A DNA stretch of 64,000 nt from Polynucleobacter sp. JS-Safj-400b-B2 (lineage in GTDB: Bacteria; Pseudomonadota; Gammaproteobacteria; Burkholderiales; Burkholderiaceae): contig NZ_JACVPJ010000004.1 of NCBI RefSeq assembly GCF_018881975.1, positions 202,290 through 266,289 of the forward strand, in the 5' to 3' direction. Of this stretch, positions 2,222 through 51,761 are shown one piece after another. The first letter of the stretch is position 1. Each line of letters opens with the position of its first letter. The position numbers and the translations under genes were made by a program. The notes below the pieces were generated by a model. It was not told the DNA's origin. It saw only the letters and a program-made list of their open reading frames with translations, and did no database searches.

Positions 2222-3271
2222 TTATATCAAATGCATTGCCAACCTCTTTCCAAACTCCAAATACCCTTTCGCATTCCCCATTACTGGCTCATCTAAAACG
2301 GTAAACTGCCCCGGAAATTGCTCGCGCATAGGTTTTTCAAAAAAGGTAGCGCCGCCGCCAGTCAAAATAACATTGTCTATGGAGATGGCTTTCCCAGAAG
2401 ATCGATCTACCTGGTGGCTATTAATCTCGGTTAACAACAGAGAAACAATACTCGATGCTTTACGCTCTGCGATGATGCGGTAGGGCGCAAAGTCGTAGCG
2501 CTTGCCCATCAGGTTGGTATACCCATTATGAAGTGCGGTATCTATTACATGCTCGTTAATCGAAATTCCAGTATCTTTGAGGAATGCTTTCCCTACCTCA
2601 TTCAAGATTGCTGAAACGCCTCCGTTAAATGCGCCTGATCGCTCCAAAACTGCTTTTGCCCCTTTACTGGTGAACCAATCAACCGTTAGGTATCCAGGGT
2701 CAATCACAAGGTGTGTTTTATCAAAAGCCTCCGAATTATTCTCCAGCTCAATGTAATGGAGCATGGAGCCCATAGGTTGAGGCAATACGGCAACCTTCTT
2801 GATGCTTGACGCGAAGCATGGTCCATAAATTGGCTTAAGACCGGCCGTGTTGGGGATTTGCAGGTTTTTGCAAAAGCGCTTAATTAACGCATCCTTCTTT
2901 TGGGAAAAATTCGATACTGGTAAGCCGAGCACTAAAAAATCAATCACATCCAATGTCATGCCCTCTGCCTTAGCGATGTAGTGCAGGGCGCCTATGACTA
3001 GAGCCTCGTAGGTATCTGATCCTGAGTAATCACCATGCAGTTCATTGCTGCCTTCGCCGGCCATATCAGGTCCAATCCAAAATAATTGCTTATTGACTAA
3101 GACTTGAACTCGGTCAAGCTGACCAATGCCAATATCGCTACCAGCAGGTTCGGTTGATCGCAGGGTTTGCGAGCTAAAAATCATTTCTTTAGCTGGGCCG
3201 CCATTAACTACCCAGGCCAGTTTAGTGTTGCCAAATCCTACGTCTATGGCGATGATGTTTTTGCTGCTCAT
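2222..3271 (-). CDS. parM: Actin-like segregation ATPase, ParM/StbA family (type II partition)
   Basis: The N-terminal IAIDVGFGNTKLAW phosphate-1 motif of the actin/ASKHA fold, a 349 aa size and co-transcription with a small DNA-binding-like protein downstream of a repeat array. Confidence 0.7.
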   Translation of the reverse strand: MSSKNIIAIDVGFGNTKLAWVVNGGPAKEMIFSSQTLRSTEPAGSDIGIGQLDRVQVLVNKQLFWIGPDMAGEGSNELHGDYSGSDTYEALVIGALHYIAKAEGMTLDVIDFLVLGLPVSNFSQKKDALIKRFCKNLQIPNTAGLKPIYGPCFASSIKKVAVLPQPMGSMLHYIELENNSEAFDKTHLVIDPGYLTVDWFTSKGAKAVLERSGAFNGGVSAILNEVGKAFLKDTGISINEHVIDTALHNGYTNLMGKRYDFAPYRIIAERKASSIVSLLLTEINSHQVDRSSGKAISIDNVILTGGGATFFEKPMREQFPGQFTVLDEPVMGNAKGYLEFGKRLAMHLI

Positions 3272-4610: not shown

Positions 4611-5675
4611 ATGATTTCGAAAAAAACAAACACCGCATTACAAGACATTACCCTCAACGAAGGCTGGAAGCGCCAGCTTCAAGACATTCTCAATAAAAAT
4701 TCCGGCACCAGAGTCAACGGCAAAGTCGCCTCAAACCGCACCCAAGATATCGCCTGCAAAACACTCTTCTCCGAGTTCAATACACTCAGGGATTTGGGTT
4801 ACCGCACTATGCCCATCAATTTCGGAAACAAACAAATGGAAGTGCTGGTAAAAAACTGGTATTACACCCGCAAGCTCTCTCCTAAAACGATGGCCACCCA
4901 TCTGACCCAGTTTAGAAAGTTTGCGGAGTGGATTGGTAAGAAGGGTATGGTCAGAGACCTTGTGCACTATCTATCCGATGTTGACCCAAAATTACTTCAA
5001 GTGCATTTTGCCGCCACCGAATCCAAAAGCTGGAGTGAGCATGATATTGACGTCATTGAGGAAATCACCAGAGGCGATGCAATGGATTTACGTTTCGGCT
5101 GCATGCTCCGTCTCGAATATGCTTTTGGATATCGTATGCAGGAATGCTTGCTCTGTGACCCATGGGTAACAGATAACATTCATTCCATTGCTATTTTACC
5201 CAGCCAAGGCAAAGGTAATCGCGCCCGCAATATCCCAATTGATAGCCCAGCTCAAAGAAAAATCATCGAATACATCAAAACCATTATCAAAAAAGGTGAA
5301 AAAGTAGGGTGGTGCGACGTTGATGGCACGCCACATGATTTAAAAGTAAACATCAACCGCTACGGCTATCTGATGCGAAAGCTAGGAATGACCAAAAAGG
5401 ATCGCGGCGTTACCGGGCACGGCTTAAGAGCCGAGTACTCTGAAGACCAAGCTCTTCGTCTTGGCTATATTCCACCAACCCTGGGCGGCACCAACGACCA
5501 AATGAGCAAGGAAGACCTCACCATTAAGCAAAAACAGGTGAGCGAACGTCTTGGGCATAGTCGATCTAGTGTGACGGCTGCTTACTACGGCTCATCTGAA
5601 CTTGCCAAAGAAAACACCAAAAGAAGGGATGAGGCTAAAAACAAAAATAAAGTCATCGATGCAGTAAGCCGCTAA
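4611..5675 (+). CDS. Tyrosine site-specific recombinase (phage-integrase family, divergent)
   Basis: Residues consistent with the R..K..H-x-x-R..Y catalytic set: GKGNRARNIPI, GHGLRAEY and RLGHSRSSVTAAYYGS with the candidate nucleophile Tyr. The size is 354 aa. Confidence 0.65.
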   Translation: MISKKTNTALQDITLNEGWKRQLQDILNKNSGTRVNGKVASNRTQDIACKTLFSEFNTLRDLGYRTMPINFGNKQMEVLVKNWYYTRKLSPKTMATHLTQFRKFAEWIGKKGMVRDLVHYLSDVDPKLLQVHFAATESKSWSEHDIDVIEEITRGDAMDLRFGCMLRLEYAFGYRMQECLLCDPWVTDNIHSIAILPSQGKGNRARNIPIDSPAQRKIIEYIKTIIKKGEKVGWCDVDGTPHDLKVNINRYGYLMRKLGMTKKDRGVTGHGLRAEYSEDQALRLGYIPPTLGGTNDQMSKEDLTIKQKQVSERLGHSRSSVTAAYYGSSELAKENTKRRDEAKNKNKVIDAVSR

Positions 5676-11738: not shown

Positions 11739-12890
11739 TTAAGCAGCCAATACCTCCAATTGCACATCCGTTTTCCAACGATGAATTTGGCTAAGCGTGC
11801 ATTCAGCACGATCAAGATCGCTTCGCTTGCCAAGATACACTGGCTGGAAAAGGCTGCCTCCAGTAAACGCATAAAGGTACTGAACCTCGATAAGATCACC
11901 TAACGATGGGATATTGGCTGATGGGGGGATGGTGACATTGCCAACATTGATCTCATTACCATTGACGTCATAAAGGGATATGCCGACACTGCGCTGTTGG
12001 TTGATTTTGGTTACCAAACAGGTTGAACTTTCCAAGAATTTGAATTTCAGGAAGTCGCCACCAGAATTGGGTCGTCCTGCCGCATGCTTGGAATTGATTT
12101 TCTTAAGCACAACACCTTCACCGGCAGCCGATAGCACGCTATCGCAAAATGCTTTTGCAGCTTCGATGCCATCCTCTGGGTAGATTGTTGGAATAAGCTT
12201 GATTTGCTCGCCTGACAATTCAAGGCTCTCCAACATCTCCCTAAGTGCAACAAAACGTCGCGCATAAGGCTGCTCTGACACTGTTGGGGCATTAGGGCAA
12301 AGGAGTGTATCAAAGACGTAGAAGACGTTTTTAACAATCTCACCATCGAGATAAAACTGCTCGCTGATTGCTTTTGAGCTCAGAAACTGGGAGAGGGATT
12401 GAGGTACATCGCGACATTGGCCTTTGCGGTTGAAGGCCGTCACTTGATCAACCTTGGAGCCTTTGTGCAGTAACGACATACGATCACCATCGGCCTTAAG
12501 CTGCATCACGTATTGGCCAGTAGCAAATAATTCAAGCACCTCTTCGATCGTATTGAGGGGGTTAAGCAGCTGCGCGCCAAAAGGCGATGTAACGGCCCGA
12601 ACTTCCGAAATTTCGATGACGTTATCACTTGGGCATGTCTGTCTCACGATGCTATAAATAGATGAACCTGAGCCCTTAAGCTTTGCCTCGATTGCCTTGG
12701 TATAGGCTTTCCTTGCGGCATCAAAATCAGAGTAGGGCGCTTTTTCTGGCTGCTGGCGAAGATTGCCGGCCGGGCCATTTTTGATCATAACGCTAAATGT
12801 GTCGTCATCGTTTTGACCAAGAATAACAAGGTATTCTTTGCCTCCGCTATTGCTCGGTGCTGACAGTAATGTTTGTTCTTTAACTTGCAT
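11739..12890 (-). CDS. ATP-dependent DNA (or RNA) ligase, minimal nucleotidyltransferase plus OB type, with an N-terminal WGR-like extension
   Basis: Covalent nucleotidyltransferase motifs: I QLKADGDR (KxDG), III FYLDGEIV, IIIa YVFDTL, IV EGVVLK and V FLKFKF. The first ~80 residues (EYLVILGQNDDDTFSVMIKNGPAGN) are WGR-like. Confidence 0.75.
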   Translation of the reverse strand: MQVKEQTLLSAPSNSGGKEYLVILGQNDDDTFSVMIKNGPAGNLRQQPEKAPYSDFDAARKAYTKAIEAKLKGSGSSIYSIVRQTCPSDNVIEISEVRAVTSPFGAQLLNPLNTIEEVLELFATGQYVMQLKADGDRMSLLHKGSKVDQVTAFNRKGQCRDVPQSLSQFLSSKAISEQFYLDGEIVKNVFYVFDTLLCPNAPTVSEQPYARRFVALREMLESLELSGEQIKLIPTIYPEDGIEAAKAFCDSVLSAAGEGVVLKKINSKHAAGRPNSGGDFLKFKFLESSTCLVTKINQQRSVGISLYDVNGNEINVGNVTIPPSANIPSLGDLIEVQYLYAFTGGSLFQPVYLGKRSDLDRAECTLSQIHRWKTDVQLEVLAA

Positions 12891-12948
12891 GGCATTTCCT
12901 TTTGAGCGTCTAAAGAACTATCATCTCAAGGGAAGTAACAAATGCAAG

Positions 12949-13251
12949 TTAGGAAATTTTATTGGGCAGTGTAGCTGCAAAAACATCAACGCCTTCTTGG
13001 ATGCCTTTGTTCCAATAATGCTCAGTGACATACTCAAAGAACCGAATTGGCGTCTCAAGCGTCCGTGAAAATCCACTCTTTTTCTCACTTTTGATGAAGG
13101 CGTCGATCATCTCGCGACTCTCTGTAGCCCAAAGTAGAAAATCTCCATAAGCCTGGTATTGAAACGGATCTTGTAGGTTTGAGGGCTTGTTTTTGATCTT
13201 GTCAATAAACGAGAGTGTTTGTCCCTGCAGATTCAAAGTCGTTACTCCCAT
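12949..13251 (-). CDS. Hypothetical protein (about 100 aa)
   Basis: Start chosen at MGVTTLNLQ. The longer ORF in the track would run through the tRNA-like gene and is rejected. Confidence 0.35.
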   Translation of the reverse strand: MGVTTLNLQGQTLSFIDKIKNKPSNLQDPFQYQAYGDFLLWATESREMIDAFIKSEKKSGFSRTLETPIRFFEYVTEHYWNKGIQEGVDVFAATLPNKIS

Positions 13252-13262
13252 AAAATTAGTGA

Positions 13263-13334
<72 letters not shown>

Positions 13335-13636
13335 ATCGTGAAACCAACTACTCGCTGCGTCTAGTAACCCATTGGATATCACCCTGAAGTCTGCGATCTT
13401 CTTTGGTCGTTTTCTAGCATCCGCTTTCGTTGGTGCTATTAATTTAACCGTCAAAATTGTTTATGCAAATTCAATTCATTGAATAATAATTGCAGAATTC
13501 TTGGGTCCAGGCGAGACCTAAGTCGCATAACTTATCCTCGACCATGTAACTACCAGTGGTCACTGGCCATTGCTCTAAGTTATTGATTTAAAGCGAATCC
13601 CGCTTACAAAAAATATGACTCTCGAGGGTAATTTTT

Positions 13637-14083
13637 CTACATTTCTTGCGGCTGAAGTTTTGCTAATGCGCCCTGAATTTGAGGGATACTGTCCCTGTTT
13701 GTACCAACAACGAAACTGCACAGACCCCCTTTGCTTTTAATGATTTTCATGATCTTAGGCAAATCTACGGAAAGCAAGGCACCTAAATTTGGGCTGTAAA
13801 TCGCAGAGCCGCCGGTATAACCCCACGAGCCTTGAATGACTGCGTAAGCATGGCGACCACCCATCCGATCCGAGACTGCCTTGTCGTTCATTCTGGCAGA
13901 AAGACCGCCGTCAACAATACGTCGCGCATCTCTTAGCGCGATAGCACCATCAGTCGATCGATCGAATATGTAGCAATAGTGCGGGATATAGTCTGATTTG
14001 ACTTGGGAAATCACCCGGCCAGTAGATCTGCTTCGCTTTTGAGCTAGCGCCAAGTTAAGGTGGGGTATTAGGGTACCTCGCAT
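13637..14083 (-). CDS. Hypothetical protein (148 aa) co-transcribed with the alarmone hydrolase
   Basis: It lies 3 nt downstream of the HD-domain gene. A glycine-rich GSWGYTGGSAIYSPNLG segment is present. Fold not assignable by eye; a macro-like or nucleotide-binding fold is possible. Confidence 0.4.
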   Translation of the reverse strand: MRGTLIPHLNLALAQKRSRSTGRVISQVKSDYIPHYCYIFDRSTDGAIALRDARRIVDGGLSARMNDKAVSDRMGGRHAYAVIQGSWGYTGGSAIYSPNLGALLSVDLPKIMKIIKSKGGLCSFVVGTNRDSIPQIQGALAKLQPQEM

Positions 14084-14086
14084 TCT

Positions 14087-14668
14087 TTATGCTTTGGTCG
14101 TCTCAGCTTTTAAAGAACTACGGAGTTCCGATAGGGTTCCTTGCGCCAAAAATTCTAATCCAGGATCTATGGGTCCAAGCCCGGCAATAACTGCCTCAGA
14201 CCAATCGGCGTACTGAGCAATTCGCTCCATGGGCCATCCATCTGGAGGACTCTTGACCATGTCACTCAGATTGCATATTTTGTCTGCAATCTTAACAAGC
14301 TTGGCGCCATAACTCAGATGTGGCGCATGCTCAATCTGCAGACGCTTGCGCACATCGCTTGTCAAGGATTTATCATCTGTTACCTCCTTGACGATCCCTA
14401 GAACATTCTCACCAAATAGGAATTGAATCTGGTGTTCGGTAGTATTGGTGTCCTCCAGTACATCATGCAGGATGGCCGCAATGATAATCTCCTCATCCCC
14501 TAGCTCGGACAGAAGGTGCGCAACTCCAATTGGGTGATTAATGTACGGGGTCTGCTCTTTGTCTTTACGGCGCTGTTTGGTATGTTTGTGCGCCGCAAAA
14601 GCAACAGCATCAAGAATCTTACGAGAGAGGAAGGCTGGGGAGGTGGGTGGCGATTTTTCTTTAAACAT
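14087..14668 (-). CDS. HD-domain small alarmone ((p)ppGpp/(p)ppApp) hydrolase, SpoT/Mesh1-like
   Basis: FAAHKHTKQRRKDKEQTPYINHPIGVAHLL...AILHDVLEDT matches the RelA/SpoT hydrolase-domain signature (HD, and ED at the second metal site). A 193 aa single-domain protein. Confidence 0.75.
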   Translation of the reverse strand: MFKEKSPPTSPAFLSRKILDAVAFAAHKHTKQRRKDKEQTPYINHPIGVAHLLSELGDEEIIIAAILHDVLEDTNTTEHQIQFLFGENVLGIVKEVTDDKSLTSDVRKRLQIEHAPHLSYGAKLVKIADKICNLSDMVKSPPDGWPMERIAQYADWSEAVIAGLGPIDPGLEFLAQGTLSELRSSLKAETTKA

Positions 14669-14725
14669 AATAAGGTGAAGCCTTTATCTACAAGGAGCTA
14701 TCGGATGCTGACGTTTTCAAAACAA

Positions 14726-15163
14726 TTAAGAGTCAGCATTTTCGCTGGGTACCGGCGTAATAATTTTCCAGCCTGGATTACAAAACGCAATATAAGGGTA
14801 GTAAGACTTCGAGTCTTCACAGTAGAACCAGCGTGGATGGTCTGAATGCATCACTGGCTCATCAAGTGCGGGCGGCTGTGATTGCTCAAGGTATGGGCTT
14901 GGAAGATATGGGTAGGGGCTAGGGTAGCTGGGGTATTGATATGGGTAATAAACGCCGTTCACTAGCCAATACCAACCTAGCCGCCCATCACGTATTTCAT
15001 GCTGCCAATGACCGGAATCCCAAATATGAATATCGTATTCAGAAAAACGATCAATTTGGTTTTCGTTTCGCCAACCCTCTGCCGATGCTGCGATCGCAAT
15101 AGAGCCAATCAAGGAGAATATAAGAATGCATCGGAAATATTTTGAAATTTTGATTCCACTCAC
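14726..15163 (-). CDS. Secreted Tyr/Pro-rich hypothetical protein
   Basis: Signal peptide MSGIKISKYFRCILIFSLIGSIAIAASA and YPYQYPSYPSPYPYLPSPY low-complexity repeats. Confidence 0.4.
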   Translation of the reverse strand: MSGIKISKYFRCILIFSLIGSIAIAASAEGWRNENQIDRFSEYDIHIWDSGHWQHEIRDGRLGWYWLVNGVYYPYQYPSYPSPYPYLPSPYLEQSQPPALDEPVMHSDHPRWFYCEDSKSYYPYIAFCNPGWKIITPVPSENADS

Positions 15164-15348
15164 GACTTCTCCTTGTTAACCAAGGAGATATCTTTGCATG
15201 AGAATCCACATCCGCAAGTCCCGAAAAGTATAAAAAAGAAGGCGTTTAATCTATTCTCGCCATTCTCTCAGGTTACCCCCCCTTACTTGAATGTGTGCCA
15301 AAACCTTTGTTGTCAAAAACAATTCATTTGCAATGATTTGCATAAAAG

Positions 15349-15666
15349 TTAGGGTGACAACGGAATTCTGGAGTGTTTGCAAGCTCGAATCGCATACTGA
15401 GCCAAAGCAATAAAGCTGGAACCCTCGACAAGTGCTCGCGGCACTAACTCAAGTAGGTCGCCATCCATCTCGATCCGACGCTTCAGATAGGCGCCTGTGT
15501 ATTCTAAATTTTGCTCTAAGCTCGACAACCTAATGCATGCAGCCAATATCCGAGAGCTGGCAACATTTTTTGCAGAAAATGGAGTAAGCAATAAAACCTT
15601 GAATTGCGCCGCAATCAGCTCGCTATCGGCATGAATGTCGGCTAGGTTGTCGTGTTGCTTGCTCAT
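15349..15666 (-). CDS. Hypothetical protein (105 aa)
   Basis: ORF only. Confidence 0.3.
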   Translation of the reverse strand: MSKQHDNLADIHADSELIAAQFKVLLLTPFSAKNVASSRILAACIRLSSLEQNLEYTGAYLKRRIEMDGDLLELVPRALVEGSSFIALAQYAIRACKHSRIPLSP

Positions 15667-15916
15667 TGAGATTTAGAGAAGCGGCTGCGACTAAGCTTAG
15701 CAACGCATAGACCGCATTTCCATCGCGAGCGAACCACTCCTGCAGTTTTAAATGAAACCGTTTTTCCAGACGCGACGTCGCGCGTAGTTTGACAGGAGGT
15801 ACAAAAGCGGGTTTGGGGTGTTGTTGTCGTGGTAGCAGTGGTGGGTATCATTAACGAGTGCTAATCGGCTCTAGTAGTGGGTAAAAGTTGATTTTACAAG
15901 CTAACAATCCCGACCT

Positions 15917-16297
15917 CTAGCTAATCCAACTTTCCGGCGAATTGCAGATCCGAATAACCTCTTCGCACTGCTCATTGTCAAATAAGGCCATGTGGCAATT
16001 ATCAATATGCATCCGCATTTGTTTAGCTAGCCATTCGTAAGCATTGGACCGGTTGATAAACCCTTTTTGCCACAGAGGGTCAAATGCCTCGTGAGCGCGC
16101 AACCGAGCTTTACGAAGTTTTGCATTTGCTAAAGTGCCTTTGGGTATGGTGCTACCAGGGAAGCAGCTAACGGTCGCCTTACAAGGGGCGCAGTGATAAA
16201 AAAAATCATCCCTAAGGTGATCGCGGTGCGCGTATAAACTAGCGCCGGTATAAAGGCCAGCTTCGTCGCCGCAATAAGGGCATTTAATCTCCAGCAT
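15917..16297 (-). CDS. Zinc-ribbon protein (phage/ICE-type)
   Basis: CPYCG...HCAPCK Cys pairs at the N-terminus. Adjacent to the exonuclease gene. Confidence 0.45.
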   Translation of the reverse strand: MLEIKCPYCGDEAGLYTGASLYAHRDHLRDDFFYHCAPCKATVSCFPGSTIPKGTLANAKLRKARLRAHEAFDPLWQKGFINRSNAYEWLAKQMRMHIDNCHMALFDNEQCEEVIRICNSPESWIS

Positions 16298-16324
16298 AGG
16301 ATTGCCACGCTTTGTTACGGAAAA

Positions 16325-17056
16325 TTACGTCTGCAATGCTGCGCGCAAATAAGGGTCGATATCGCTTTGCCCTACCAACCAACGTTTGTAATCTACGGGC
16401 AAATCCGTCAAAGCACAGCCCTTGTGCTTACCAAAACTCATATGCGTCGGGATTCTGGCGAGTTCAGAGGCCTCATAAAGGCCTTCGATGGTGGTAATTC
16501 CAAAATGTCTTACGAGGGCCTTCAAAATACTGGCGCAAATGAGCACGTCAGCCTTTGCTGAGTGCGCATTCTTCAGCTTTTCTCGCGCATGGGTGCGATA
16601 CAAAAAATACATGAGTGCAGATTGGGTGTGAGAGCCAAGCTCGGGCCAAGCTTTACGAGCCAGGGCGAGAGTGCAAATACACTTAACATCGGGATTGCCA
16701 ATAACCGTGGCATCAAAATCAATATTGTGGCCAATGAGATATTGGATTCCATCTGGCAGCGAGAATGAAGAAGAGGACGGGCAATTGACTAAATCCTCGT
16801 CCATTATGTGGTGTGTTGCTAGGGCCCCAATCTCAATGGGTTTGCTAGGCTTGTATTGTTGGTTAAATCCATCGCCAACAAATATCGTTGGCAAAATGGA
16901 TGAGATCTCGAGCCACGCCGCTTCAATGAGTTCGGGTTCATTGAGGCCTGTGGTTTCGCAATCGAAGATATAAGCATTAATACCCGGCATCTTCTTCTTC
17001 CAGCTTGCGAATACGCTCCTCGAGGTTGAATGTTTTAACCATGCCAAAACAGACAA
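16325..17056 (-). CDS. DEDDh 3'-5' exonuclease (DnaQ-like) with a C-terminal KHKG/DUF3820-like extension
   Basis: Exo I YIFDCETTGL, Exo II IGHNIDFD, Exo III HSAKADV (H-x4-D). The probable start is MPGINAY at 16990. Confidence 0.75.
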   Translation of the reverse strand: MSVLAWLKHSTSRSVFASWKKKMPGINAYIFDCETTGLNEPELIEAAWLEISSILPTIFVGDGFNQQYKPSKPIEIGALATHHIMDEDLVNCPSSSSFSLPDGIQYLIGHNIDFDATVIGNPDVKCICTLALARKAWPELGSHTQSALMYFLYRTHAREKLKNAHSAKADVLICASILKALVRHFGITTIEGLYEASELARIPTHMSFGKHKGCALTDLPVDYKRWLVGQSDIDPYLRAALQT

Positions 17057-17190
17057 TCGCTAAAGCAGTCCAGCCAACAAATATGTTTAATAAAGTATTC
17101 ATAGATTCAATGTATAGCAGATGTAAGGCATTGCAAGTCAAGAAATATGCCAGCGATGCCGGCATATTTTTTATTCAAAACTGCGAACCA

Positions 17191-17499
17191 TTACTTGGAT
17201 TTTTTAGCTGGCGCGGCCTTTTTCTTTGGGTTGAGCTCATCCTTGAGTGTTTTACTGGCTGAAAATTTCAGTGATTTCTTTGCGGTGATTTTAACGGCCT
17301 CACCAGTGCGCGGGTTACGTCCGGTGCGAGCGGCTCTCTCGGTACACTTGAATGAACCAAAGCCAAAAATCGCCACACCAACACCATTTTTGAGGGATCC
17401 AGCAATGCCATCAAAGACGGCTTCAACAGCATGGGCTGCTGCAATTTTTGAAATATCTGCTTTTTCTGACACAAATGCCACTAATTCTGTTTTATTCAA
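17191..17499 (-). CDS. HU/IHF-family nucleoid protein with a lysine-rich C-terminal tail
   Basis: MNKTELVAFVSEKADISKIAA...GFGSFKCTERAARTGRNPRTGEAV is a canonical HU fold sequence followed by a KKKAAPAKKSK tail. TTG start at 17499 with a GGAG 7 nt upstream. Confidence 0.8.
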   Translation of the reverse strand: MNKTELVAFVSEKADISKIAAAHAVEAVFDGIAGSLKNGVGVAIFGFGSFKCTERAARTGRNPRTGEAVKITAKKSLKFSASKTLKDELNPKKKAAPAKKSK

Positions 17500-17546
17500 T
17501 TTAAAACTCCTTGTAAGGGTGCTGCGGTTGGGAAAGCTACTTTTAT

Positions 17547-18344
17547 TTATGAATATAGTTTTTTTGCTTGGCGATCGGCACAACGCTTGCCTAATGGCGC
17601 ATCAAGCCACCATGACCCAGAGCTGGCACTACCATCTTTGGATGGATCATTCCTGTCATAATTCCAGGGGTACCAACACATGAGACCTGGGCTGGATTGC
17701 GAGGGCCTAAGAAATCCCCATTTTTTTGAATACATATCATCATGAAAAAATAGAGTCCAGCATTCCAAAGGTTTTCCATTGGCATCGTTATCAAGCACTA
17801 CACGATGGAAGTCGTATCCATCCAATAGGTTTGAGCTGTCAATTAAAAACTCACCATTTGGTGTTTTCTCTCTATAGCACCCCAATAAAACAATGGACCG
17901 CGCCCAGCACCATGGGTGGTCGTGAAACCCTCTATCTGGGTCGCTGGCTACAAATCTGTGGATATAAAAACGGGCGCTAAATATGCTAAATAGATAATAT
18001 CGCTCAAGGTAAGGGGACGAGCCATCGCTAATAATTCGACAAGGCAGGTTACCGGAGAGCCAATATAGGAACAGCCCCATTGCCCGATCGCTCCAAGGGC
18101 GTAACCGATAGGCTCTTTTTTGAGCCCACATCTTCAACCCCATAAGGCTGGCTATTGAAAATAGTAGGTTGGCGATGCCAATATAAAAAATTGTTAATGG
18201 CAGGTGGAATATTGTTGAAAGCTGGTCAACTACCGTTTGCGGCGTTGAAAAACTAAATGGGATCGTAATAAAGGTGTACCAAAACGACCAAAATAGAATT
18301 TGATTTAATACTTTTGAGCGAGTTTTTTGCAGTGACTTTATCAA
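17547..18344 (-). CDS. Membrane protein with a C-terminal cupin-like domain
   Basis: N-terminal TM helices, then GFHDHPW (a G-x-H-x-H cupin motif 1) and PNGEF...FHRVVLDN (motif 2-like). Confidence 0.35.
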   Translation of the reverse strand: MIKSLQKTRSKVLNQILFWSFWYTFITIPFSFSTPQTVVDQLSTIFHLPLTIFYIGIANLLFSIASLMGLKMWAQKRAYRLRPWSDRAMGLFLYWLSGNLPCRIISDGSSPYLERYYLFSIFSARFYIHRFVASDPDRGFHDHPWCWARSIVLLGCYREKTPNGEFLIDSSNLLDGYDFHRVVLDNDANGKPLECWTLFFHDDMYSKKWGFLRPSQSSPGLMCWYPWNYDRNDPSKDGSASSGSWWLDAPLGKRCADRQAKKLYS

Positions 18345-18931
18345 GCGAACGCCTTTAATGGGGTGAGAGCTTCTTTAGCGAGGCGAGACCATTCATCGCT
18401 ATCTAATGCATTAATTAGATCGTCTAATTGGTCTTCGAGCCTAAAAATTAAGTCGCGCCATTTCTCAGAAACAGATCGCATTTTCCAGAGCCTGTCCTGA
18501 AGCTCGGGGCAGGCGCTTAAAAGGCGAACACAAGATTCCAGCTCCTTTGAAGTTTTGGGTGTTGGCATAACCCGCTTAGTATCATAAAAATTTAAACCAG
18601 ATAGTGCTGTAAATAAAGCGTCTGAGCTTCTGGTGCGCGCACCATTTGCGAGCCAGTGAATGACATGTTTCTTGGCGCCTAATAGCCTGGGGTCATTGGC
18701 ATAAACCGCTAACAATTCGCCGGAATCCGTAAGCTCATGATTTAGCCTTAATAAATCCGATGGCAAACCAATAACCGCAAAAACACGCATTCTGCAGGCT
18801 AAAATTAAATCCATGACCGCACCAGCAGGCGCTTGAGTAAACACCCCGGCCAACTCTTTTGGGCTCATGCCGTAGTCCGCCGTAATAACCAGGCACCCTG
18901 ATCGAAGTCGAGTGGATGGCATGGTTATCAT
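18341..18931 (-). CDS. Hypothetical protein (196 aa)
   Basis: ORF overlapping both neighbours by 4 nt, so operonic. Confidence 0.35.
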   Translation of the reverse strand: MITMPSTRLRSGCLVITADYGMSPKELAGVFTQAPAGAVMDLILACRMRVFAVIGLPSDLLRLNHELTDSGELLAVYANDPRLLGAKKHVIHWLANGARTRSSDALFTALSGLNFYDTKRVMPTPKTSKELESCVRLLSACPELQDRLWKMRSVSEKWRDLIFRLEDQLDDLINALDSDEWSRLAKEALTPLKAFA

Positions 18932-19602
18932 TCTTGGCCTTGAATTTGACCAATAGTGAGCCGTCCGGTTTTAAAAGCGCCGGTATCTATGAAATGATGG
19001 TTGCCTCGTACTTGCGCAGAGCCTACGATTGTGTGGCCACAATAAATTGCGTGAACATCTTCAACAGGCTTAGTGCAGAGGTCGTATATAACCTTTCGAT
19101 TCCAAAGGCAGGCTTGCGTTAGGTGGTAACTAGTCTTTGGATTGATTAATCCAGATTTAAGAGCGCTCCAATTTGATGTTGGGCATTCAGCGTGAACTAT
19201 GCCGACCATGCCGAAATCCGTTTCAACCTCGATAATAATTGGAAGGCTGGCAAATGCGCTTAGAAAGCGGTCACGTTCAAAGGGATCGGTATTATTAATA
19301 AGCCATTGGCCCCCATTGCTACGGTAGCACTCTTCATCTACGCCATGGAGCATATAGTCGATCGCCATCTGCTCATGGTTCCCGGTTACCGCGTAAAACC
19401 AATCTTTGTCTAGATACTCAAGACATTTTGCAGAATGGCGTCCACGGTCGATGATGTCGCCGACTGAAAATAAGCGGTCCTTAGCGGTATTGAATTGAAT
19501 ATCAAGCAAAGCTGAATCAAGCACATCAAAACAGCCATGTATATCGCCAACAACAAAATCTCGTCCAAGTTGATTTTTCTTGATTGACCTGACAAAATTC
19601 AT
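18928..19602 (-). CDS. Ser/Thr protein phosphatase, lambda PPase/PrpA-like calcineurin-fold metallophosphoesterase
   Basis: GDIHGC, GDIIDRG and GNHE motifs in canonical order. Confidence 0.8.
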   Translation of the reverse strand: MNFVRSIKKNQLGRDFVVGDIHGCFDVLDSALLDIQFNTAKDRLFSVGDIIDRGRHSAKCLEYLDKDWFYAVTGNHEQMAIDYMLHGVDEECYRSNGGQWLINNTDPFERDRFLSAFASLPIIIEVETDFGMVGIVHAECPTSNWSALKSGLINPKTSYHLTQACLWNRKVIYDLCTKPVEDVHAIYCGHTIVGSAQVRGNHHFIDTGAFKTGRLTIGQIQGQE

Positions 19603-35527: not shown

Positions 35528-36517
35528 ATGATCAATCACGAAACAATCTTATCGACGCTTTACATTGCACTAAACCCCATCAAAGAATATTTGGAGGGTG
35601 ATGGCATCAATGAAATCATGATTAATCCAGGGGGCGATGTCTGGATTGAGCGAAGGGGAATGATTGAGCATATTGGCGTTTTACTCAACGAGAATCAAAT
35701 AAAATTCGCCATTTATTCGGTAGCCAAACTCACCGGTAAGGCGGCAAGCCCAGGCGATGAAAATGCGCTAGTCAACGCAGCTTTTGAAGATTTTCGTTTT
35801 GCAGGAGTGCTGCATCCCATTTCACCTGATGGAAGCACGATTTGCATTCGAAAACATCAGGATAAAAGTCAGAGGCAGACTTTTGAAGATATGATTGACT
35901 GCGCCATGATTACCCAATCTCAAGGCGATTTTATATTGGATATGTTTGTTAAAAAGCATCAAAATATCATCATCGCAGGTATTACTGGCTCGGGCAAAAC
36001 AACCCTTTTAAATGCAATTGCCGGAAAAATACCAAACCATGAACGGGTGGTTACGATTGAAGATACAAGAGAACTCCATATATCTGTGGCGAATAAAGTA
36101 TCACTGTTATCAAATGAGCTTAACAATATTCATGCGGTAGATTTGGTTAAAGAGGCTTTGCGCCTGCGCCCGGACCGGATATTGCTAGGGGAAACACGTG
36201 GGTCAGAAACATTCGACTTAATAAGGGCCTTTAATTCGGGCCACGCCGGCATATCCACTGTACATGCTAATTCAGCAGTGCTGGCCTTAGATGCGATTGA
36301 GATGCTTTATCAAATGAGCCTACCAAAAGGAGCGGGCATTAGTTCGGCAGTGGTAAGACAGTACATTGCAAAATCAGTCAACATGACTATCTATGCAAAT
36401 CGACGATATATCCCGCAGCCAGACGGCACTATTCGCGCCGTTCGTAAAGTTGAGGAAATTTGTGTAATCAAGGGGCTTGATCGCGATGGAAATTACGAGG
36501 TTGAATACATCAAATAA
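35528..36517 (+). CDS. trbB: VirB11/TrbB-family type IV secretion ATPase
   Basis: Walker A GITGSGKTT, TIEDTRE (the Asp box), Walker B RILLGETRG and the His box HAGISTVHANS. Confidence 0.8.
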   Translation: MINHETILSTLYIALNPIKEYLEGDGINEIMINPGGDVWIERRGMIEHIGVLLNENQIKFAIYSVAKLTGKAASPGDENALVNAAFEDFRFAGVLHPISPDGSTICIRKHQDKSQRQTFEDMIDCAMITQSQGDFILDMFVKKHQNIIIAGITGSGKTTLLNAIAGKIPNHERVVTIEDTRELHISVANKVSLLSNELNNIHAVDLVKEALRLRPDRILLGETRGSETFDLIRAFNSGHAGISTVHANSAVLALDAIEMLYQMSLPKGAGISSAVVRQYIAKSVNMTIYANRRYIPQPDGTIRAVRKVEEICVIKGLDRDGNYEVEYIK

Positions 36518-42297: not shown

Positions 42298-42633
42298 ATG
42301 CTCAGAAACTCTTATGTTTACAAGGCACTTTCAAGAACGCACTTGGTTTTGGGAATTCCTGTAAAAATATTGGCCATTATTTGGTCAATTGCCTCCTTCA
42401 CAATCCTAGGTCTGTGGGTGGCTAAAGCATTGACTTGGTGGGATTGTATTGGCGTGCTAGCCATATTTTGGGCTATCCACAATCTGATTGCAGTCCAATT
42501 TGATAAGGATTCATTAATAGACAAGATTTATAAAATCTATTCAACAACCAAAGACCACTACCACCCAGAGTCCCGCATCTTAGATCGCATGCATGAGCGC
42601 CCAAGTAAATACGGCAGAGGCGTGCGATGCTAG
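42298..42633 (+). CDS. VirB3/TrbD-like protein
   Basis: A 111 aa protein with two TM helices. Its stop overlaps the VirB4 start. Confidence 0.5.
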   Translation: MLRNSYVYKALSRTHLVLGIPVKILAIIWSIASFTILGLWVAKALTWWDCIGVLAIFWAIHNLIAVQFDKDSLIDKIYKIYSTTKDHYHPESRILDRMHERPSKYGRGVRC

Positions 42634-45164
42634 GCCTTCGATTTAAAGATAAAGAAGTTGCCGGACCGGTACAGGAGGTCTGCCCATGGTTAGATTTTAT
42701 TAACCCTGAAATGATCCTATGCAAAGACGGTTCATTGCTTGCTGGCTTTGAATTTAATGGCGTAGACATTGAAAACGCTACCGATGAGCATAAAAATGCG
42801 GTAGTCAACGAGCTTCAAAGAGCTTATCAAGGGTTTGATAACAGAGATACGCTAACCTGGGTGTTTGACAAAAAGCGATCGTACAGCTATCCAGAAAATA
42901 TCTTTCTCAATCCAATCTCCAAAAGAATTGATGACCTGTACTCCGAGCCATTTCGGCAGGGTTACTACTTTACCCTCTCAAATCGCCTGTATTACCTTTA
43001 TACGGGCAAGGCCGGTATTGCGCGATTTATGGATACGTTCGCAAGAGAGACTGAAAAAAACGGAAAAAATGCATTAACGGCATTGCTTTTAGCCGCAAAG
43101 GACTCTCTAACCGGAAGAATTAGCTATGAAATCGATGGGCAGCAAATCATGCATAACATCGAGCAATTTGAGCGCCGTCTTACGCAGTTCTTAGTTCAAA
43201 CTCCGTCGATTAAATGGAAAAGGCTTGGGTATGAGGATTTAAAAAATGCTCTTTCAATGCAAATCAATCCAGCCTCAATCAACCACACAGCCAAAAAACC
43301 ATTTGGTCAAATGCTTGACTCATGGTTACCTAGTAATACGGTTACGCCCGGATCTGACATTATCCGATTTGATGGAGCTGGACGGACAAAGTACATGAGC
43401 ATTATTGGCATAAAGGAATGGCCAAACTTAACTCACCCTGACCTAATGGGTAAGTTAATGGAGATTGATACCGAAGTTACCGTTTGCCAGACTATGCGAT
43501 TTCTGGGTCATAAAGGGACGCAAGCCAAGCTAAATGATGCGGTAGATTTTTACAAGCTAACCCAAGTTGGGATCATAAAAAACGCCATCGCCAAGCTGAC
43601 TAAGAAACCCCCTGAACCTGACCCGGGCAAATATGAATTATATGCAGAATGCGTTCAGGCTCTAGCCAGACTTGAGGTTGATAACATTCAGTACGGATAC
43701 CACACCATGGCCGTGTGTACTAGTGCCGAATCAAAGAAAGAGCTTGCTCAGTCAGTAGAAAACATCAGCACAGTTCTGAGTCGAAACTTTCAAATCATTG
43801 CTGAAAGCATGAATGCTTTCGCCTCATGGGCAGCGACATTGCCGGGGCAGTGGGCTATGCAGTCACGCTGGTCATTGGTGAGCAATGAGAATTTGGCTGA
43901 TATTTCCCCGATTTTCACTATTAATCATAGACCCAAAAATAATGGAGCATTTGAAGAAATGCTCGGCAAAAAAGCTAATGCACTTTGCGTGTTTAATGAT
44001 ATTTACGGTGGAGTTGAATATTTTAATAGTCATGTTGACCAAGTGGGGCACGCCATCATTATTGCACCAACAGGGGGCGGCAAAACCACCATTGTAAACC
44101 TAGCTTTATCACAATTTCAGAAATACACGAAGGATGGCAAAGAGCCAAATACGATTGTTTTTGATAGGGACTATTCGGTTCGCATAACCGCCAAGCTTCA
44201 GGATGCATCGCACATTGACTTAAAGTCTGGTCGCATTCGAATGAACCCATTAATGGCGCTCTTTGACGATGATGCAAATTCCAACGAGGAAAAAACCAAC
44301 ACAAAAGACGACTCCAATCAAGAAATCTCATCTACAACAAATGGGTTCTTATGGTGCAGGGATTTTGTGGGACGAAGAATTGAGGCAAATGGATACAAGC
44401 TAACTGCCGAGGACATTAAATCAATAGATGATGGGCTTTTAATGCTTAAGGGGTCGCCAGCTCAAAAGCCAAGATTATCTAAGTTGGCAATATTGCTGCC
44501 AAAGCATTTGGCGGCTGAGTTAGGGGAGTGGCTAGAAGGTCGTCCATTTGGCATGTTTGATTCCGAGGATGATGAGTTCTCCCTAAGCTCATTTACTTGC
44601 ATTGAAATGAAAGAGTTTTTGGAAAACGAAAGATTGGCCCAAGCCTTCTTGGATTATGCATTTCGCAAGGTTTATTCGAAGCTGGATGGTAGGCCAACCT
44701 TTATCTACATTGAAGAGGCATCATTCCTACTCAATCATCCTACGTTCCAAAAAATGCTCGATGACTGGTTAAAAACATTTCGCAAAAAAGGGGCATTTGT
44801 TTGGATGGCCGTTCAATCGCCAACGTCAATTGTCAACGCAGAGATAGCGGCCAGCATTACGGATAACGTTAAAACCAAAATATTGCTATTCAATAAATCA
44901 GCTGAAGCCCATCGTGATTCATATAAGAAGTATTTTGGACTTGATGATTATCAAGTTGACAGAATTGCAAGTTTAGTAAAAAAACGCGATTACTACATTA
45001 TTTCAGATGGCGAGGCACGCACAGTTCAAACCCAGTTTTCAAAAGAATGTCTTGCCTATTTGAGATCTGAACAGCATTTGCAGAATATTTACGACGCCAC
45101 ATACAGCCCAGATGATGATAGCTGGAAAGAAAAATATATTGAAAAGGTCATGGTGCTTAAGTGA
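42627..45164 (+). CDS. trbE: VirB4/TrbE-family conjugative transfer ATPase
   Basis: An 845 aa protein with Walker A IIAPTGGGKTT and Walker B-like FIYIEEASFL. The gene context is pilin-VirB3-VirB4. Confidence 0.8.
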   Translation: MLGLRFKDKEVAGPVQEVCPWLDFINPEMILCKDGSLLAGFEFNGVDIENATDEHKNAVVNELQRAYQGFDNRDTLTWVFDKKRSYSYPENIFLNPISKRIDDLYSEPFRQGYYFTLSNRLYYLYTGKAGIARFMDTFARETEKNGKNALTALLLAAKDSLTGRISYEIDGQQIMHNIEQFERRLTQFLVQTPSIKWKRLGYEDLKNALSMQINPASINHTAKKPFGQMLDSWLPSNTVTPGSDIIRFDGAGRTKYMSIIGIKEWPNLTHPDLMGKLMEIDTEVTVCQTMRFLGHKGTQAKLNDAVDFYKLTQVGIIKNAIAKLTKKPPEPDPGKYELYAECVQALARLEVDNIQYGYHTMAVCTSAESKKELAQSVENISTVLSRNFQIIAESMNAFASWAATLPGQWAMQSRWSLVSNENLADISPIFTINHRPKNNGAFEEMLGKKANALCVFNDIYGGVEYFNSHVDQVGHAIIIAPTGGGKTTIVNLALSQFQKYTKDGKEPNTIVFDRDYSVRITAKLQDASHIDLKSGRIRMNPLMALFDDDANSNEEKTNTKDDSNQEISSTTNGFLWCRDFVGRRIEANGYKLTAEDIKSIDDGLLMLKGSPAQKPRLSKLAILLPKHLAAELGEWLEGRPFGMFDSEDDEFSLSSFTCIEMKEFLENERLAQAFLDYAFRKVYSKLDGRPTFIYIEEASFLLNHPTFQKMLDDWLKTFRKKGAFVWMAVQSPTSIVNAEIAASITDNVKTKILLFNKSAEAHRDSYKKYFGLDDYQVDRIASLVKKRDYYIISDGEARTVQTQFSKECLAYLRSEQHLQNIYDATYSPDDDSWKEKYIEKVMVLK

Positions 45165-46026: not shown

Positions 46027-47265
46027 TTGATGAATGGATTGCTTAAAAAGGGAGTATTTGCCGCAATACTCATACTTGCATCTGGCGCATCCTTTGCTCA
46101 GGCAAGCGCAGATCCTACCGCATCGATGTGGACAAATCTTGCGTCGATTGCGGATAACTTTTTCAATAACTTCAACATCTTCCAAAATGCCGACTCCCTC
46201 ATTTTGGGTGCTGGGCTAGGCATTTCTCAAAAGCTTATGAGCACTGCCCTAACCCTCGGGGGCTCGCTAGCTCTGATTAATTTGTTATGGGTAGCTATTG
46301 ACCACCTAGTTTTAAGGGGGCATCGCGATCTTATATGGCCCCCCATAATTCATTCCGTTGTAATGGCGGTAATTACAGGTGCCGTCCTTAGAGCCTACCC
46401 ATTACTAGCGCAAGGGGCAATAGACTTTTTTATGGGCGTAACAAATTTAGTATCTGGGTCAGCCTCAACAAGCCAGGTGCAATCCATTGGGAATCAGCTT
46501 ACTAATTTAGCTATCAACGGGATTAAATCAGCGCTTGAGTCGGTTCATGCATTTGATTGGAACGCTAAGGCAATTTTACTAATAATAATTGACGTTCTTT
46601 TGACGTTGATTGTGGGTCTATTTTGCATGATCATGGCAATTTTGATGTTTGTATCAGTGGTTAGTTCGATATTTACAGGAACCTTAATGGCAGGTTTAGC
46701 TATCGCATTAGGGCCACTTTTTATCGCCACAATTGCATCCGGATTTACAAGGACATTCTTCGATAAATGGTTTGGATTTTTATGTAGCGCTCTTTTCGTT
46801 AAGGTTGTTGTGATGACGATGTTAGCCCTTTTGGTTGGTATTTTTGATTCATCGACTAATGCTCAAAACTCTGTAGGCCAAATGAATGCCGGGGGCTTTG
46901 CGTTTGGAAAGTTATTGGTTCTCGCAGTCTCGCTATGGATCATGAAGCAATTGATGGAAAGTGCGCCCAATATTGCGTCCGCACTAATGCCTGGCGGGCT
47001 TGGCGTTAGCGTAAAGAGCGCCATGGGGACTGCTGTGGCGGCTGCATCAGGAGTCGTTGGGGCGGGCTTGGCGGCCGCTACCGGTGGCGCTGGCGCGCTA
47101 ATGGGTAATGCCGGAGCAATGTCGGCCGGCAAGGATGCCGCAGGAAAATTGGCGGCAGGTGCCATGTCAAACGCCAAAGAAGCGATGATGGGGAAGCTTG
47201 GCGCCACACCAAGAGCGGGGCCAGCATCAAAGCCCAAGCCATCCACTTCAGATTCTGGCGACTAA
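46027..47265 (+). CDS. TrbL/VirB6-like polytopic membrane protein with a Gly/Ala-rich C-terminal tail
   Basis: Signal peptide, about six TM helices and a C-terminal GGAGALMGNAGAMSAGKDAAGK low-complexity tail. Confidence 0.55.
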   Translation: MMNGLLKKGVFAAILILASGASFAQASADPTASMWTNLASIADNFFNNFNIFQNADSLILGAGLGISQKLMSTALTLGGSLALINLLWVAIDHLVLRGHRDLIWPPIIHSVVMAVITGAVLRAYPLLAQGAIDFFMGVTNLVSGSASTSQVQSIGNQLTNLAINGIKSALESVHAFDWNAKAILLIIIDVLLTLIVGLFCMIMAILMFVSVVSSIFTGTLMAGLAIALGPLFIATIASGFTRTFFDKWFGFLCSALFVKVVVMTMLALLVGIFDSSTNAQNSVGQMNAGGFAFGKLLVLAVSLWIMKQLMESAPNIASALMPGGLGVSVKSAMGTAVAAASGVVGAGLAAATGGAGALMGNAGAMSAGKDAAGKLAAGAMSNAKEAMMGKLGATPRAGPASKPKPSTSDSGD

Positions 47266-47277
47266 AAGGAACTATAA

Positions 47278-48187
47278 ATTGAACATTAAACACTTACTGT
47301 CCACGGTTGCTTGTGCGATAGCTCTTTGTGCAGCCATTATTCCAGCGAAGGCTTCGAATGAGCCATTGGCTGTTGACGGCACCTTTAGCGAAGATCATGG
47401 TAAGGACGAGGCTCATGCCTTGGCTGTCACCCCAATCCATGCATTAAGCGCAATAGGGCAACCATTAAAAATAGTGATCACCGATGAAGTACTTAAAAAT
47501 GAGGGTGCACTTAGAAAAACTAAAAGGTGGAAAATTTCCCGCCAGAAGCAAGATACATCGGGATTGAGTGTAATTTTTATAGAGCCCACTAAAAGGGACT
47601 TAGAGGATAAGTTGATTTTTGGAACATCGGAGGGTATTAAAACCTTAATCATTTATTCTGGGCCACAGGGTGGCAAGGTCAGCCCCCCTATTATTTTAAG
47701 CAACTATTTTCGCTCGCCAAAATCTTCACAAAAGCAAATTGCTTTGCCGCCAATCGCGGTACCAGTTAAACCTGAAACGGTTAAGCGTGATGTAAATATT
47801 GAAAGTGCAAATACAGGCACGGAAATTTACCTCCCAGAAAAACAAAAAATCGCTGAAATTCGCGAGATTTCATTTAACGAAAATGCAGTCAAAAGTGCAC
47901 CATTAATGGATGAAGTTGATTTGCCAAATTTCACGCAACCCGTGGAAATAACAAATAAATGGACGGTGCATCGTGGTGATTATTTATGTTCAAAAATACA
48001 AGAATGGGCAAATCACTCGGGTTGGCAGGTGAGCTGTGAGGCAGATGCAGAAATTCTAGGTGATGTGAGCGTGAATAAGGATTTACCTTTGGCAATCAAT
48101 CAACTAGTAAAGGCAATAGGGGCGGATAAATTCAAAATTCGCATTTATAAACAAAACAAAATGATTCGAATTTCTGATTACCAATAA
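47278..48187 (+). CDS. PilL/TcpQ-like periplasmic protein of type IVb pilus systems
   Basis: TTG start with an AAGGA RBS, a signal peptide, and a C-terminal WTVHRGDYLCSKIQEWANHSGWQVSCEA segment resembling the TcpQ-type C-domain. Family assignment from memory. Confidence 0.4.
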
Positions 48188-48195
48188 GCAAACTA

Positions 48196-49848: not shown

Positions 49849-49853
49849 ATACC

Positions 49854-51750: not shown

Positions 51751-51761
51751 AGAAAACTTTT

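What the first reader, a model, noticed from the sequence alone, without database searches (positions are those of the whole stretch)
13637..14668. Mesh1/SpoT-type small alarmone hydrolase co-transcribed with an unknown 148 aa protein
- A stand-alone HD hydrolase (HKHT...HPIGVAHLL...LHDVLEDT) is cargo on a mobile element, followed 3 nt later by an unrecognised 148 aa protein.
- Stand-alone SAH enzymes serve as antitoxins for toxic alarmone synthetases, and as phage or element tools to erase (p)ppGpp/(p)ppApp or related nucleotide signals, including defence second messengers.
- The partner could be the target, sensor or toxin.
Basis: partly seen in the sequence, partly recalled or inferred. Interest (0 to 1): 0.55.

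Follow-up and report, generated by a model that had tools for sequence, protein, structure and literature searches.

The report
Alarmone hydrolase inserted beside unrelated gene
A conjugative genomic island of a freshwater Polynucleobacter carries an intact Mesh1-type alarmone hydrolase gene that was slotted in front of an unrelated 148-aa gene from a rare unnamed family; the two are not a conserved pair, so this is ordinary mobile-element cargo, not a new two-gene system.

Summary
On the minus strand, a 193-aa HD hydrolase (14087-14668) is followed 3 nt later by a 148-aa ORF (13637-14083).

- **The hydrolase.** It is a clear Mesh1-type small alarmone hydrolase (human MESH1 E 5e-47) and keeps all catalytic residues. 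It is 100% identical to a Polynucleobacter protein.
- **The setting.** The window is a conjugative element with a T4SS, an R64-type thin pilus, a ParM-like protein and an integrase-like protein.
- **The pairing is not supported.** The only two diverged orthologues of the 148-aa gene (58-62% identity, loci L001 and L022) lie in the same syntenic slot with no hydrolase. Their 148-aa gene directly follows the proline/tyrosine-rich (PY-rich) gene. The hydrolase ORF was therefore most likely inserted into a pre-existing spacer in the window lineage.
- **No linkage elsewhere.** No HD homologue lies in 112 kb around nine independent family-member loci. No 148-family homologue lies around five independent SAH homologues. 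No alarmone synthetase domain was found in 58 window ORFs.
- **The 148-aa protein.** It is real and under purifying selection. It has a confident α/β model with no significant structural neighbour and an invariant Asp and Cys. It belongs to a very rare unnamed family found in accessory regions of mobile elements.

Verdict: an orphan SAH as element cargo, a new member of a known kind, next to an independent gene of unknown function.

The parts
14087..14668 (-). Small alarmone hydrolase, 193 aa, single HD_4 domain, Mesh1/Mesh1-L type. It keeps all metal-binding and catalytic residues: R34-K35-D36, H45, H68-D69, E72-D73, D129, N133.
   Evidence: Pfam HD_4 2.8e-20. PDB 3nr1 human MESH1 4.9e-47 and 3nqw Drosophila Mesh1 1.3e-42, against 3e-15 or weaker for other bacterial SAH structures. 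Residue positions. 100% identical to an NCBI 'HD domain-containing protein' of Polynucleobacter sp. JS-Safj-400b-B2; the next relative is only 61% identical.
13637..14083 (-). 148-aa protein of a rare, unnamed α/β domain family. Invariant residues D41 and C122. Motifs HYxxxxDRS, GxWGxxGG, LP, GGLC and LQP.
14084..14086 (-). 3-nt junction (AGA) between the hydrolase stop codon and the 148-aa start codon. The spacer 3' part found in relatives ('TATCACAyTTrAAAAyGGAA') is missing here.
   Evidence: Sequences; alignment.
14669..14725 (-). 57-nt spacer upstream of the hydrolase. Its 5' part (CTCTTAAT..TTTGAAAACG) and a 'TAGATAAAGGCTT' stretch resemble the spacer that precedes the 148-aa gene in L001 and L022. 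The hydrolase ORF therefore sits inside the ancestral spacer.
   Evidence: The fold is unremarkable (z -0.72).
14726..15163 (-). Proline/tyrosine-rich 145-aa protein with a signal-like N-terminus. In relatives that lack the hydrolase it is the immediate upstream neighbour of the 148-aa gene. It is mosaic in L009.
   Evidence: No family hit.
13261..13335 (-). Element-borne tRNA-Met (CAT), 300 nt downstream of the 148-aa gene. It is the conserved downstream flank of the locus.
   Evidence: ARAGORN. Rfam tRNA 61.8 bits. The L001 flank aligns into it.

Best explanation
The hydrolase is an orphan Mesh1-L-type small alarmone hydrolase carried as cargo in the variable accessory gene array of a Polynucleobacter conjugative island. 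Its ORF was most likely inserted into the spacer in front of a pre-existing, unrelated 148-aa accessory gene. The two are now read from one transcript, but they do not form a functional pair. Inferred mechanism: the enzyme uses its Mn-dependent HD site to remove the 3'-pyrophosphate from (p)ppGpp and (p)ppApp, and possibly the 2'-phosphate from NADPH. This would lower alarmone levels in whichever cell carries or receives the element. That would blunt the stringent response and any alarmone-based growth arrest, whether from toxSAS abortive defence or from (p)ppApp-synthetase toxins. The 148-aa protein would act separately, as a small establishment or conflict-type module of mobile elements; its biochemical activity is unknown. 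Shown here: enzyme identity, intact active site, element context, the presence/absence polymorphism and the lack of conserved linkage. Inferred: direction of the event, substrates, the benefit to the element, and any role for the 148-aa protein.
For: - **SAH identity and active site.**
- **Mobile-element setting.**
- **Orthologous loci without the hydrolase.** L001 (62% identity) and L022 (58%) keep the order 105-aa gene, PY-rich gene, 148-aa gene, with spacers of 92 and 71 nt and no hydrolase. L001 continues into the tRNA-Met flank.
- **Direction of the event.** The three lineages are about equidistant (62, 58 and 63% identity). L001 and L022 share spacer motifs that the window retains only upstream of the hydrolase. 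This favours an insertion in the window lineage.
- **All other copies are one lineage.** All other hydrolase+148 copies (L002, L003, L007-L010) are 96-99.6% identical to the window.
- **No linkage elsewhere.** No HD homologue in 112 kb around nine independent family-member loci, and no 148-family homologue in 35 kb around five SAH homologues (contexts).
- **Family sizes differ greatly.** At least 7,866 SAH clusters against 28 representative clusters of the 148-aa family.
- **No synthetase in the window.** No RelA_SpoT synthetase domain among 58 window ORFs scanned with Pfam.
[quoted passage not shown] Phage SAHs and human MESH1 neutralise all tested toxSAS (PMC7229694).
- **148-family contexts.** They are accessory regions of mobile elements: AcrVA2-like, HNH, MmeI-type methylase, KfrB/LPD1 polyvalent-type genes and a C5 methylase.
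Against: - L001 and L022 are short contigs (2.4 and 1.4 kb). They rule out adjacency, but a hydrolase could lie elsewhere in those elements.
- Only two diverged orthologous loci exist, so the direction of the event (insertion or two deletions) rests on parsimony and on spacer similarity.
- The tight 3-nt spacing, together with loss of the 148-aa gene's own upstream sequence, means the two are now co-expressed. Selection could therefore have favoured the combination.
- No enzymatic or phenotypic data exist for either protein.
- No relaxase or oriT was found in the window, so a 'leading region' position is not established.
Confidence: 0.7

Rival explanations
1. The hydrolase and the 148-aa protein form a functional two-gene module. 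The 148-aa protein would be a toxin, sensor or target whose effect depends on a nucleotide that the hydrolase degrades, for example a type IV toxin-antitoxin-like pair.
For: The genes are 3 nt apart on one strand, and there is no separate upstream region for the 148-aa gene. The block is inherited together and moved as a unit in the L009 mosaic. SAHs are known type IV antitoxins (PMC7229694). The invariant Asp and Cys suggest that the 148-aa protein could be an enzyme.
Confidence: 0.1
2. The hydrolase is plain metabolic or neutral cargo, for example an NADPH phosphatase or a general tuner of the stringent response that benefits the host. It would have no role in conflicts or in element establishment.
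For: Its closest relatives (53-61% identity) are mostly chromosomal or chromid genes of Burkholderia, Ralstonia and Variovorax. One lies in a nucleoside-catabolism operon. Mesh1 and XccSAH act on NADPH, and XccSAH affects growth without any toxSAS present (PMC9765508).
Against: The gene sits in an array rich in conflict-type genes: orphan methylases, NERD, a non-specific endonuclease, a Ser/Thr phosphatase, a ligase and an exonuclease. It is a recent lineage-specific gain in a mobile element. SAHs recur in phages and small plasmids. Phage SAHs neutralise toxSAS.
Confidence: 0.2

Closest known systems
Metazoan MESH1/HDDC3 (PDB 3nr1, 5vxa; Drosophila Mesh1 3nqw)
   Same: Single HD_4 domain of similar length. 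E 5e-47 over residues 17-171. All metal-binding and catalytic residues are aligned and conserved.
   Different: Bacterial and element-borne. It has about 16 extra N-terminal and about 20 extra C-terminal residues. The substrate range is untested.
XccSAH, the orphan Mesh1-L hydrolase of Xanthomonas campestris (PMC9765508)
   Same: A bacterial stand-alone Mesh1-like SAH with no cognate toxic synthetase nearby. By homology it is expected to be promiscuous for (pp)pGpp, pppApp and NADPH.
   Different: XccSAH is a conserved chromosomal gene of its genus. This one is a lineage-specific insertion in a conjugative island. The direct similarity to XccSAH was not computed here.
SAH antitoxin ATfaRel (PbcSpo) and the phage SAHs of PVP-SE1 and SSU5 (PMC7229694)
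   Same: Alarmone hydrolases carried by mobile elements or TA loci. They erase toxSAS products. This is the likely benefit of carrying an SAH on an invading element.
   Different: They belong to other SAH subgroups (PbcSpo, PaSpo). ATfaRel is paired with a toxSAS, and here no synthetase is present. PDB SAHs other than MESH1 match only at 3e-15 or weaker.
LPD-type modules of 'polyvalent proteins' of conjugative elements and phages (PMC5512222)
   Same: The 148-aa family occurs alone and also fused to other unnamed domains in 269-589 aa proteins of mobile elements. In L024 it directly follows genes carrying LPD1 and KfrB domains and a C5 methylase.
   Different: No sequence match to any Pfam LPD model. 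Delivery into recipient cells and any anti-defence activity are untested.

Membership tests
RelA/SpoT-homologue hydrolase domain (HD_4); small alarmone hydrolase | HD_4 domain above the curated threshold, as the only domain of a short protein | tested here: met
   PF13328 scores 73.1 bits against a cut-off of 27.2. The protein is 193 aa and has no synthetase domain. The NCBIfam spoT_relA model matches only its hydrolase part.
RelA/SpoT-homologue hydrolase domain (HD_4); small alarmone hydrolase | Conserved metal-binding and catalytic residues (MESH1 R24, H35, H61-D62, E65-D66, D122, N126) | tested here: met
   The aligned residues are R34, H45, H68-D69, E72-D73, D129 and N133. MESH1 numbering comes from the aligned 3nr1 sequence and from my own knowledge of the MESH1 literature.
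RelA/SpoT-homologue hydrolase domain (HD_4); small alarmone hydrolase | Hydrolysis of (p)ppGpp or (p)ppApp | not testable with these tools
   Needs an enzyme assay.
Mesh1 / Mesh1-L subgroup of SAHs | Closer to Mesh1 than to the PbcSpo, PaSpo or other SAH subgroups | tested here: met
   MESH1 structures match at 5e-47 to 1e-42. All other SAH and RSH structures match at 3e-15 or weaker. The subgroup HMMs of Atkinson/Jimmy were not available, so formal assignment to Mesh1-L is an inference.
toxSAS-SAH type IV toxin-antitoxin module | An adjacent gene encoding an RSH synthetase (RelA_SpoT domain) toxin | tested here: not met
   The 148-aa neighbour and the PY-rich neighbour have no Pfam hit. No RelA_SpoT hit was found in 58 window ORFs.
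toxSAS-SAH type IV toxin-antitoxin module | A bicistronic arrangement conserved across diverged lineages | tested here: not met
   L001 and L022 lack the hydrolase. Family-member loci have no HD homologue, and SAH loci have no family member.
Polyvalent-protein (LPD-type) modules of conjugative elements | The domain recurs both alone and in multidomain proteins of mobile elements, near T4SS or anti-restriction genes | tested here: inconclusive
   Fusions to a second unnamed domain of about 105 aa occur in 8 or more proteins. There is one context next to LPD1/KfrB and methylase genes. There is no match to any described LPD model.

The most novel reading that the evidence does not exclude
The 148-aa protein founds a new enzymatic (Asp/Cys) establishment or anti-defence domain family of conjugative elements. 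On this reading, the window lineage placed an alarmone hydrolase under the same promoter because both act on host nucleotide-based immunity or the stress response during entry into a new cell.
Probability: 0.1. Interest if true: 0.6.

Novelty: new member of a known kind. Interest (0 to 1): 0.27.

Why it matters
The finding adds a conjugative island of an abundant freshwater bacterium to the list of mobile elements that carry alarmone hydrolases. So far that list is documented mainly for phages and TA loci. This fits the view that invading DNA benefits from erasing (p)ppGpp or (p)ppApp signals.

The finding also shows, with a clean presence/absence comparison, that tight gene spacing on a mobile element can arise from an ORF-sized insertion into an existing transcription unit. 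Such spacing is therefore weak evidence for a functional pair.

The by-product is a rare, unnamed α/β domain family with an invariant Asp and Cys. It also occurs fused to other unnamed domains. It could be worth a screen as an establishment or anti-defence candidate.

Tried and rejected
- **DNA similarity to known phages.** Only the tRNA matched, and the window is not a known phage. My first impression of a phage (ligase, exonuclease, tRNA) was replaced by 'conjugative element' once the T4SS and thin-pilus genes were found.
- **AF2 with 3 sequences.** pLDDT was 52 and the model was not used. It was replaced by the 26-sequence model.
- **Profile search against PDB sequences.** Only a thioredoxin at E 0.27, rejected.
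- **Related-locus searches.** Scans for close relatives of the 148-aa and PY-rich proteins in genome contigs, JGI metagenomes and IMG/VR found nothing. The scan with A7 gave two loci.
- **tblastn of the family against PLSDB plasmids.** No match.
- **The 125-aa gene downstream of the B. pseudomallei SAH.** Tested as a possible family member and rejected (hhalign probability 0.4%).
- **Conserved partner of the 148-aa family.** All-against-all comparison of neighbours in seven loci found none. Only one neighbour is shared, between L004 and L011.
- **RNA elements around the pair.** Only the tRNA was found. The hairpin at the PY-rich gene stop codon is not unusual (z -0.72).
- **Composition.** The hydrolase gene does not differ from its neighbours (GC 0.479 against 0.45-0.50), so there is no compositional sign of recent foreign origin.

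Full report
**1. What is there**

On the minus strand, a 193-aa ORF (14087..14668) ends with TAA. After three bases (AGA) a 148-aa ORF begins (13637..14083). A tRNA-Met (CAT) gene lies 300 nt further downstream (13261..13335). No terminator-like or promoter-like site lies between the two ORFs. Co-transcription is therefore the natural reading.

**2. The hydrolase**

- It passes Pfam HD_4 (73.1 bits against a cut-off of 27.2).
- It matches human MESH1/HDDC3 (3nr1) at E 4.9e-47 and Drosophila Mesh1 at 1.3e-42. Other bacterial SAH and long RSH structures match only at 3e-15 or weaker.
- The residues aligned with the MESH1 metal and catalytic sites are all present: R34-K35-D36, H45, H68-D69, E72-D73, D129 and N133.
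- There is no synthetase domain.

It is therefore an intact stand-alone small alarmone hydrolase of the Mesh1/Mesh1-L type. The formal subgroup HMMs were not available, so the Mesh1-L label is an inference.

The protein is 100% identical to an NCBI protein of Polynucleobacter sp. JS-Safj-400b-B2 (Burkholderiaceae), on contigs of up to 320 kb. The next relatives are only 53-61% identical. They are mostly chromosomal or chromid genes of Ralstonia, Burkholderia and Variovorax. More distant copies occur on Moraxella and Acinetobacter plasmids and in phages.

**3. The setting**

The window is a conjugative element:

- VirB4 (42627-45164), TrbL/VirB6 (46027-47265) and a VirB11-like ATPase (35528-36517).
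- An R64-type thin-pilus set: TcpQ/PilL-like, secretin, PilO, ATPase, T2SSF, PilS, PilM, shufflon-type PilV and prepilin peptidase (47198-56595 and 62917-63786).
- A ParM-like protein (2222-3271) and an integrase-like protein (4611-5675).

The pair lies in a long co-directional array of small accessory genes. These include an ATP-dependent ligase, a DEDDh exonuclease, DUF3268, an HU-like protein, a PrpA/B-type Ser/Thr phosphatase, a non-specific endonuclease, NERD, a helicase and orphan methylases. None of the ten proteins in and around the pair (11739-18931) matched a PADLOC defence model as a system. No RelA_SpoT synthetase domain appeared in any of the 58 ORFs scanned with Pfam.

**4. The 148-aa protein**

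It has no hit in Pfam, PHROGs, NCBIfam, PADLOC or PDB sequences.

- **Family size.** A word-indexed search of 5.8 billion proteins found only a 99% copy and a 62% orthologue. An exhaustive HMMER search of 1.84 billion representatives found 28 clusters. A profile search added a 58% orthologue.
- **Conserved residues.** The domain alignment (A3) shows an invariant Asp (D41) and Cys (C122). G85, G92, L104, L108-P109, G120 and L143-Q144 are nearly invariant.
- **Selection.** dN against L001 is 0.34 with saturated dS. The gene is real and constrained.
- **Fusions.** In eight or more proteins of 269-589 aa, the domain is fused to a second unnamed domain of about 105 aa. In some it is also fused to a Crr6-like part or a degenerate second copy.

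**5. Is the pair a pair?**

This is the central test, and the answer is no.

(a) *Orthologous loci.* L001 (148-aa orthologue, 62% identity) and L022 (58%) keep the same local order: 105-aa gene, PY-rich gene, 148-aa gene. L001 also has the DUF3268 and 62-aa genes upstream and runs into the tRNA-Met flank downstream. Neither has a hydrolase. The spacers between the PY-rich gene and the 148-aa gene are 92 and 71 nt.

(b) *Direction of the event.* The three lineages are about equidistant (62, 58 and 63% identity). L001 and L022 share spacer motifs (ATTGGGCT, TATCACAyTTrAAAAyGGAA). The window keeps the 5' part of that spacer upstream of the hydrolase and lacks the 3' part. The simplest history is an ORF-sized insertion of the hydrolase into the spacer of an existing PY-148 unit.

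(c) *Other hydrolase+148 copies.* All of them (L002, L003, L007-L010) are 96-99.6% identical to the window. They are one lineage.

(d) *Wider contexts.* No HD homologue lies in 112 kb around nine independent family-member loci. No family member lies in 35 kb around five independent SAH homologues (contexts). The 125-aa gene after the B. pseudomallei SAH is unrelated.

(e) *Family sizes.* They differ by orders of magnitude: at least 7,866 clusters against 28.

(f) *Other partners.* No other conserved partner of the 148-aa family was found.

*Caveat.* L001 and L022 are short contigs. Only adjacency is excluded, not the presence of an SAH elsewhere in those elements.

**6. Most likely function**

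By homology with Mesh1 and with the Mesh1-L enzyme XccSAH, the hydrolase should cleave the 3'-pyrophosphate of (p)ppGpp and (p)ppApp, and perhaps dephosphorylate NADPH. [quoted passage not shown]

Stand-alone SAHs from phages and human MESH1 neutralise every toxSAS tested. Phage SAHs were proposed as counter-defence (PMC7229694).

I therefore read this gene as element cargo that lowers alarmone levels in the host or recipient. It would protect against alarmone-based growth arrest and dampen the stringent response. This is an inference.

The 148-aa protein probably acts independently. Its relatives lie in conflict-type accessory regions of mobile elements. Their neighbours include AcrVA2-like, HNH, MmeI-type methylase, multiple metallophosphatases and MazG/PIN proteins. 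One member directly follows genes carrying KfrB/LPD1 polyvalent-protein domains and a C5 methylase (concept in PMC5512222). That suggests an establishment or conflict module, with low confidence. The leading-region survey of plasmids does not mention alarmone hydrolases (PMC11541004).

**7. Verdict**

The identification of the hydrolase and of the mobile-element context is right. The proposed partnership with the 148-aa protein is not supported.

This is a new member of a known kind: an SAH carried by a mobile element. It happens to sit next to a member of a rare, unnamed domain family. Interest is modest. The residual novel reading is that the 148-aa family is a new enzymatic establishment or anti-defence domain, functionally allied with the hydrolase. 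I put this at about 10%.

Noticed in passing
window 13261-13335; L008 and L010 (L010 1432-1472 and 1666-1742): The element carries its own tRNA-Met (CAT). In two near-identical copies of the element, the tRNA is truncated just after the anticodon loop; similarity to the window ends at 13295. A second, different tRNA-Met follows about 190 nt later, followed by unrelated sequence. This looks like a rearrangement or integration hot spot at the tRNA.
   Followed up: partly
L007 17412-18091: One variant of the element has four more tRNA genes in a cluster: Tyr, an odd 'Phe' with anticodon AAA, and two Ser. This is unusual for a conjugative element.
   Followed up: no
window 19602/19616, 15064/15315 and 11331/11538, against L007, L008 and L009: Copies that are 96-99% identical differ by whole-gene insertions. 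L007 has an RRXRR-HNH 460-aa gene. L007 and L008 have a 617-aa gene of unknown function. L009 has an IS605 OrfB/TnpB. The array is a hot spot for gene-sized insertions, like the hydrolase itself.
   Followed up: partly
window 14726-15163; L009 198-623; L022 414-836: The PY-rich 145-aa protein has a signal-like N-terminus and no family. It is mosaic. L009 has the L022-type N-terminal half joined to the window-type C-terminal half plus hydrolase plus 148-aa gene. This shows homologous recombination within this gene.
   Followed up: partly
proteins P0004, P0006, P0011, P0017, P0019, P0020, P0022, P0027, P0028: A second unnamed domain of about 105 aa (motif D[MF]xxVQIxDxxAF ... DGxLxV ... GxWxxL) is repeatedly fused to the 148-aa family domain, on either side. 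It has no Pfam match.
   Followed up: partly
L024 33-6429 (Ga0209979_1000788): Three consecutive genes end in a KfrB domain. One carries LPD1 and one a C5 DNA methylase. A 148-family member follows them directly. This is a polyvalent-protein-like context.
   Followed up: no
window 18928-19602; L021 2998-3690; L013 378-3751: Metallophosphatases recur near both gene families. A PrpA/B-like Ser/Thr phosphatase lies 4 kb upstream in the window. A Ser/Thr phosphatase directly follows the SAH of Bordetella phage PHB04. Four metallophosphatase genes precede the family member in L013.
   Followed up: no
window 12949-13347: This 132-aa ORF overlaps the tRNA-Met gene on the same strand, so its N-terminal part is the tRNA read as protein. 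The real gene, if any, probably starts downstream; it was called as 100 aa in L007.
   Followed up: no
window 59005-61002: A TonB-dependent receptor gene and a DsbC-like gene (61901-62629) lie between the pilV-type gene and the prepilin peptidase of the thin-pilus cluster. This looks like cargo inside the transfer region.
   Followed up: no
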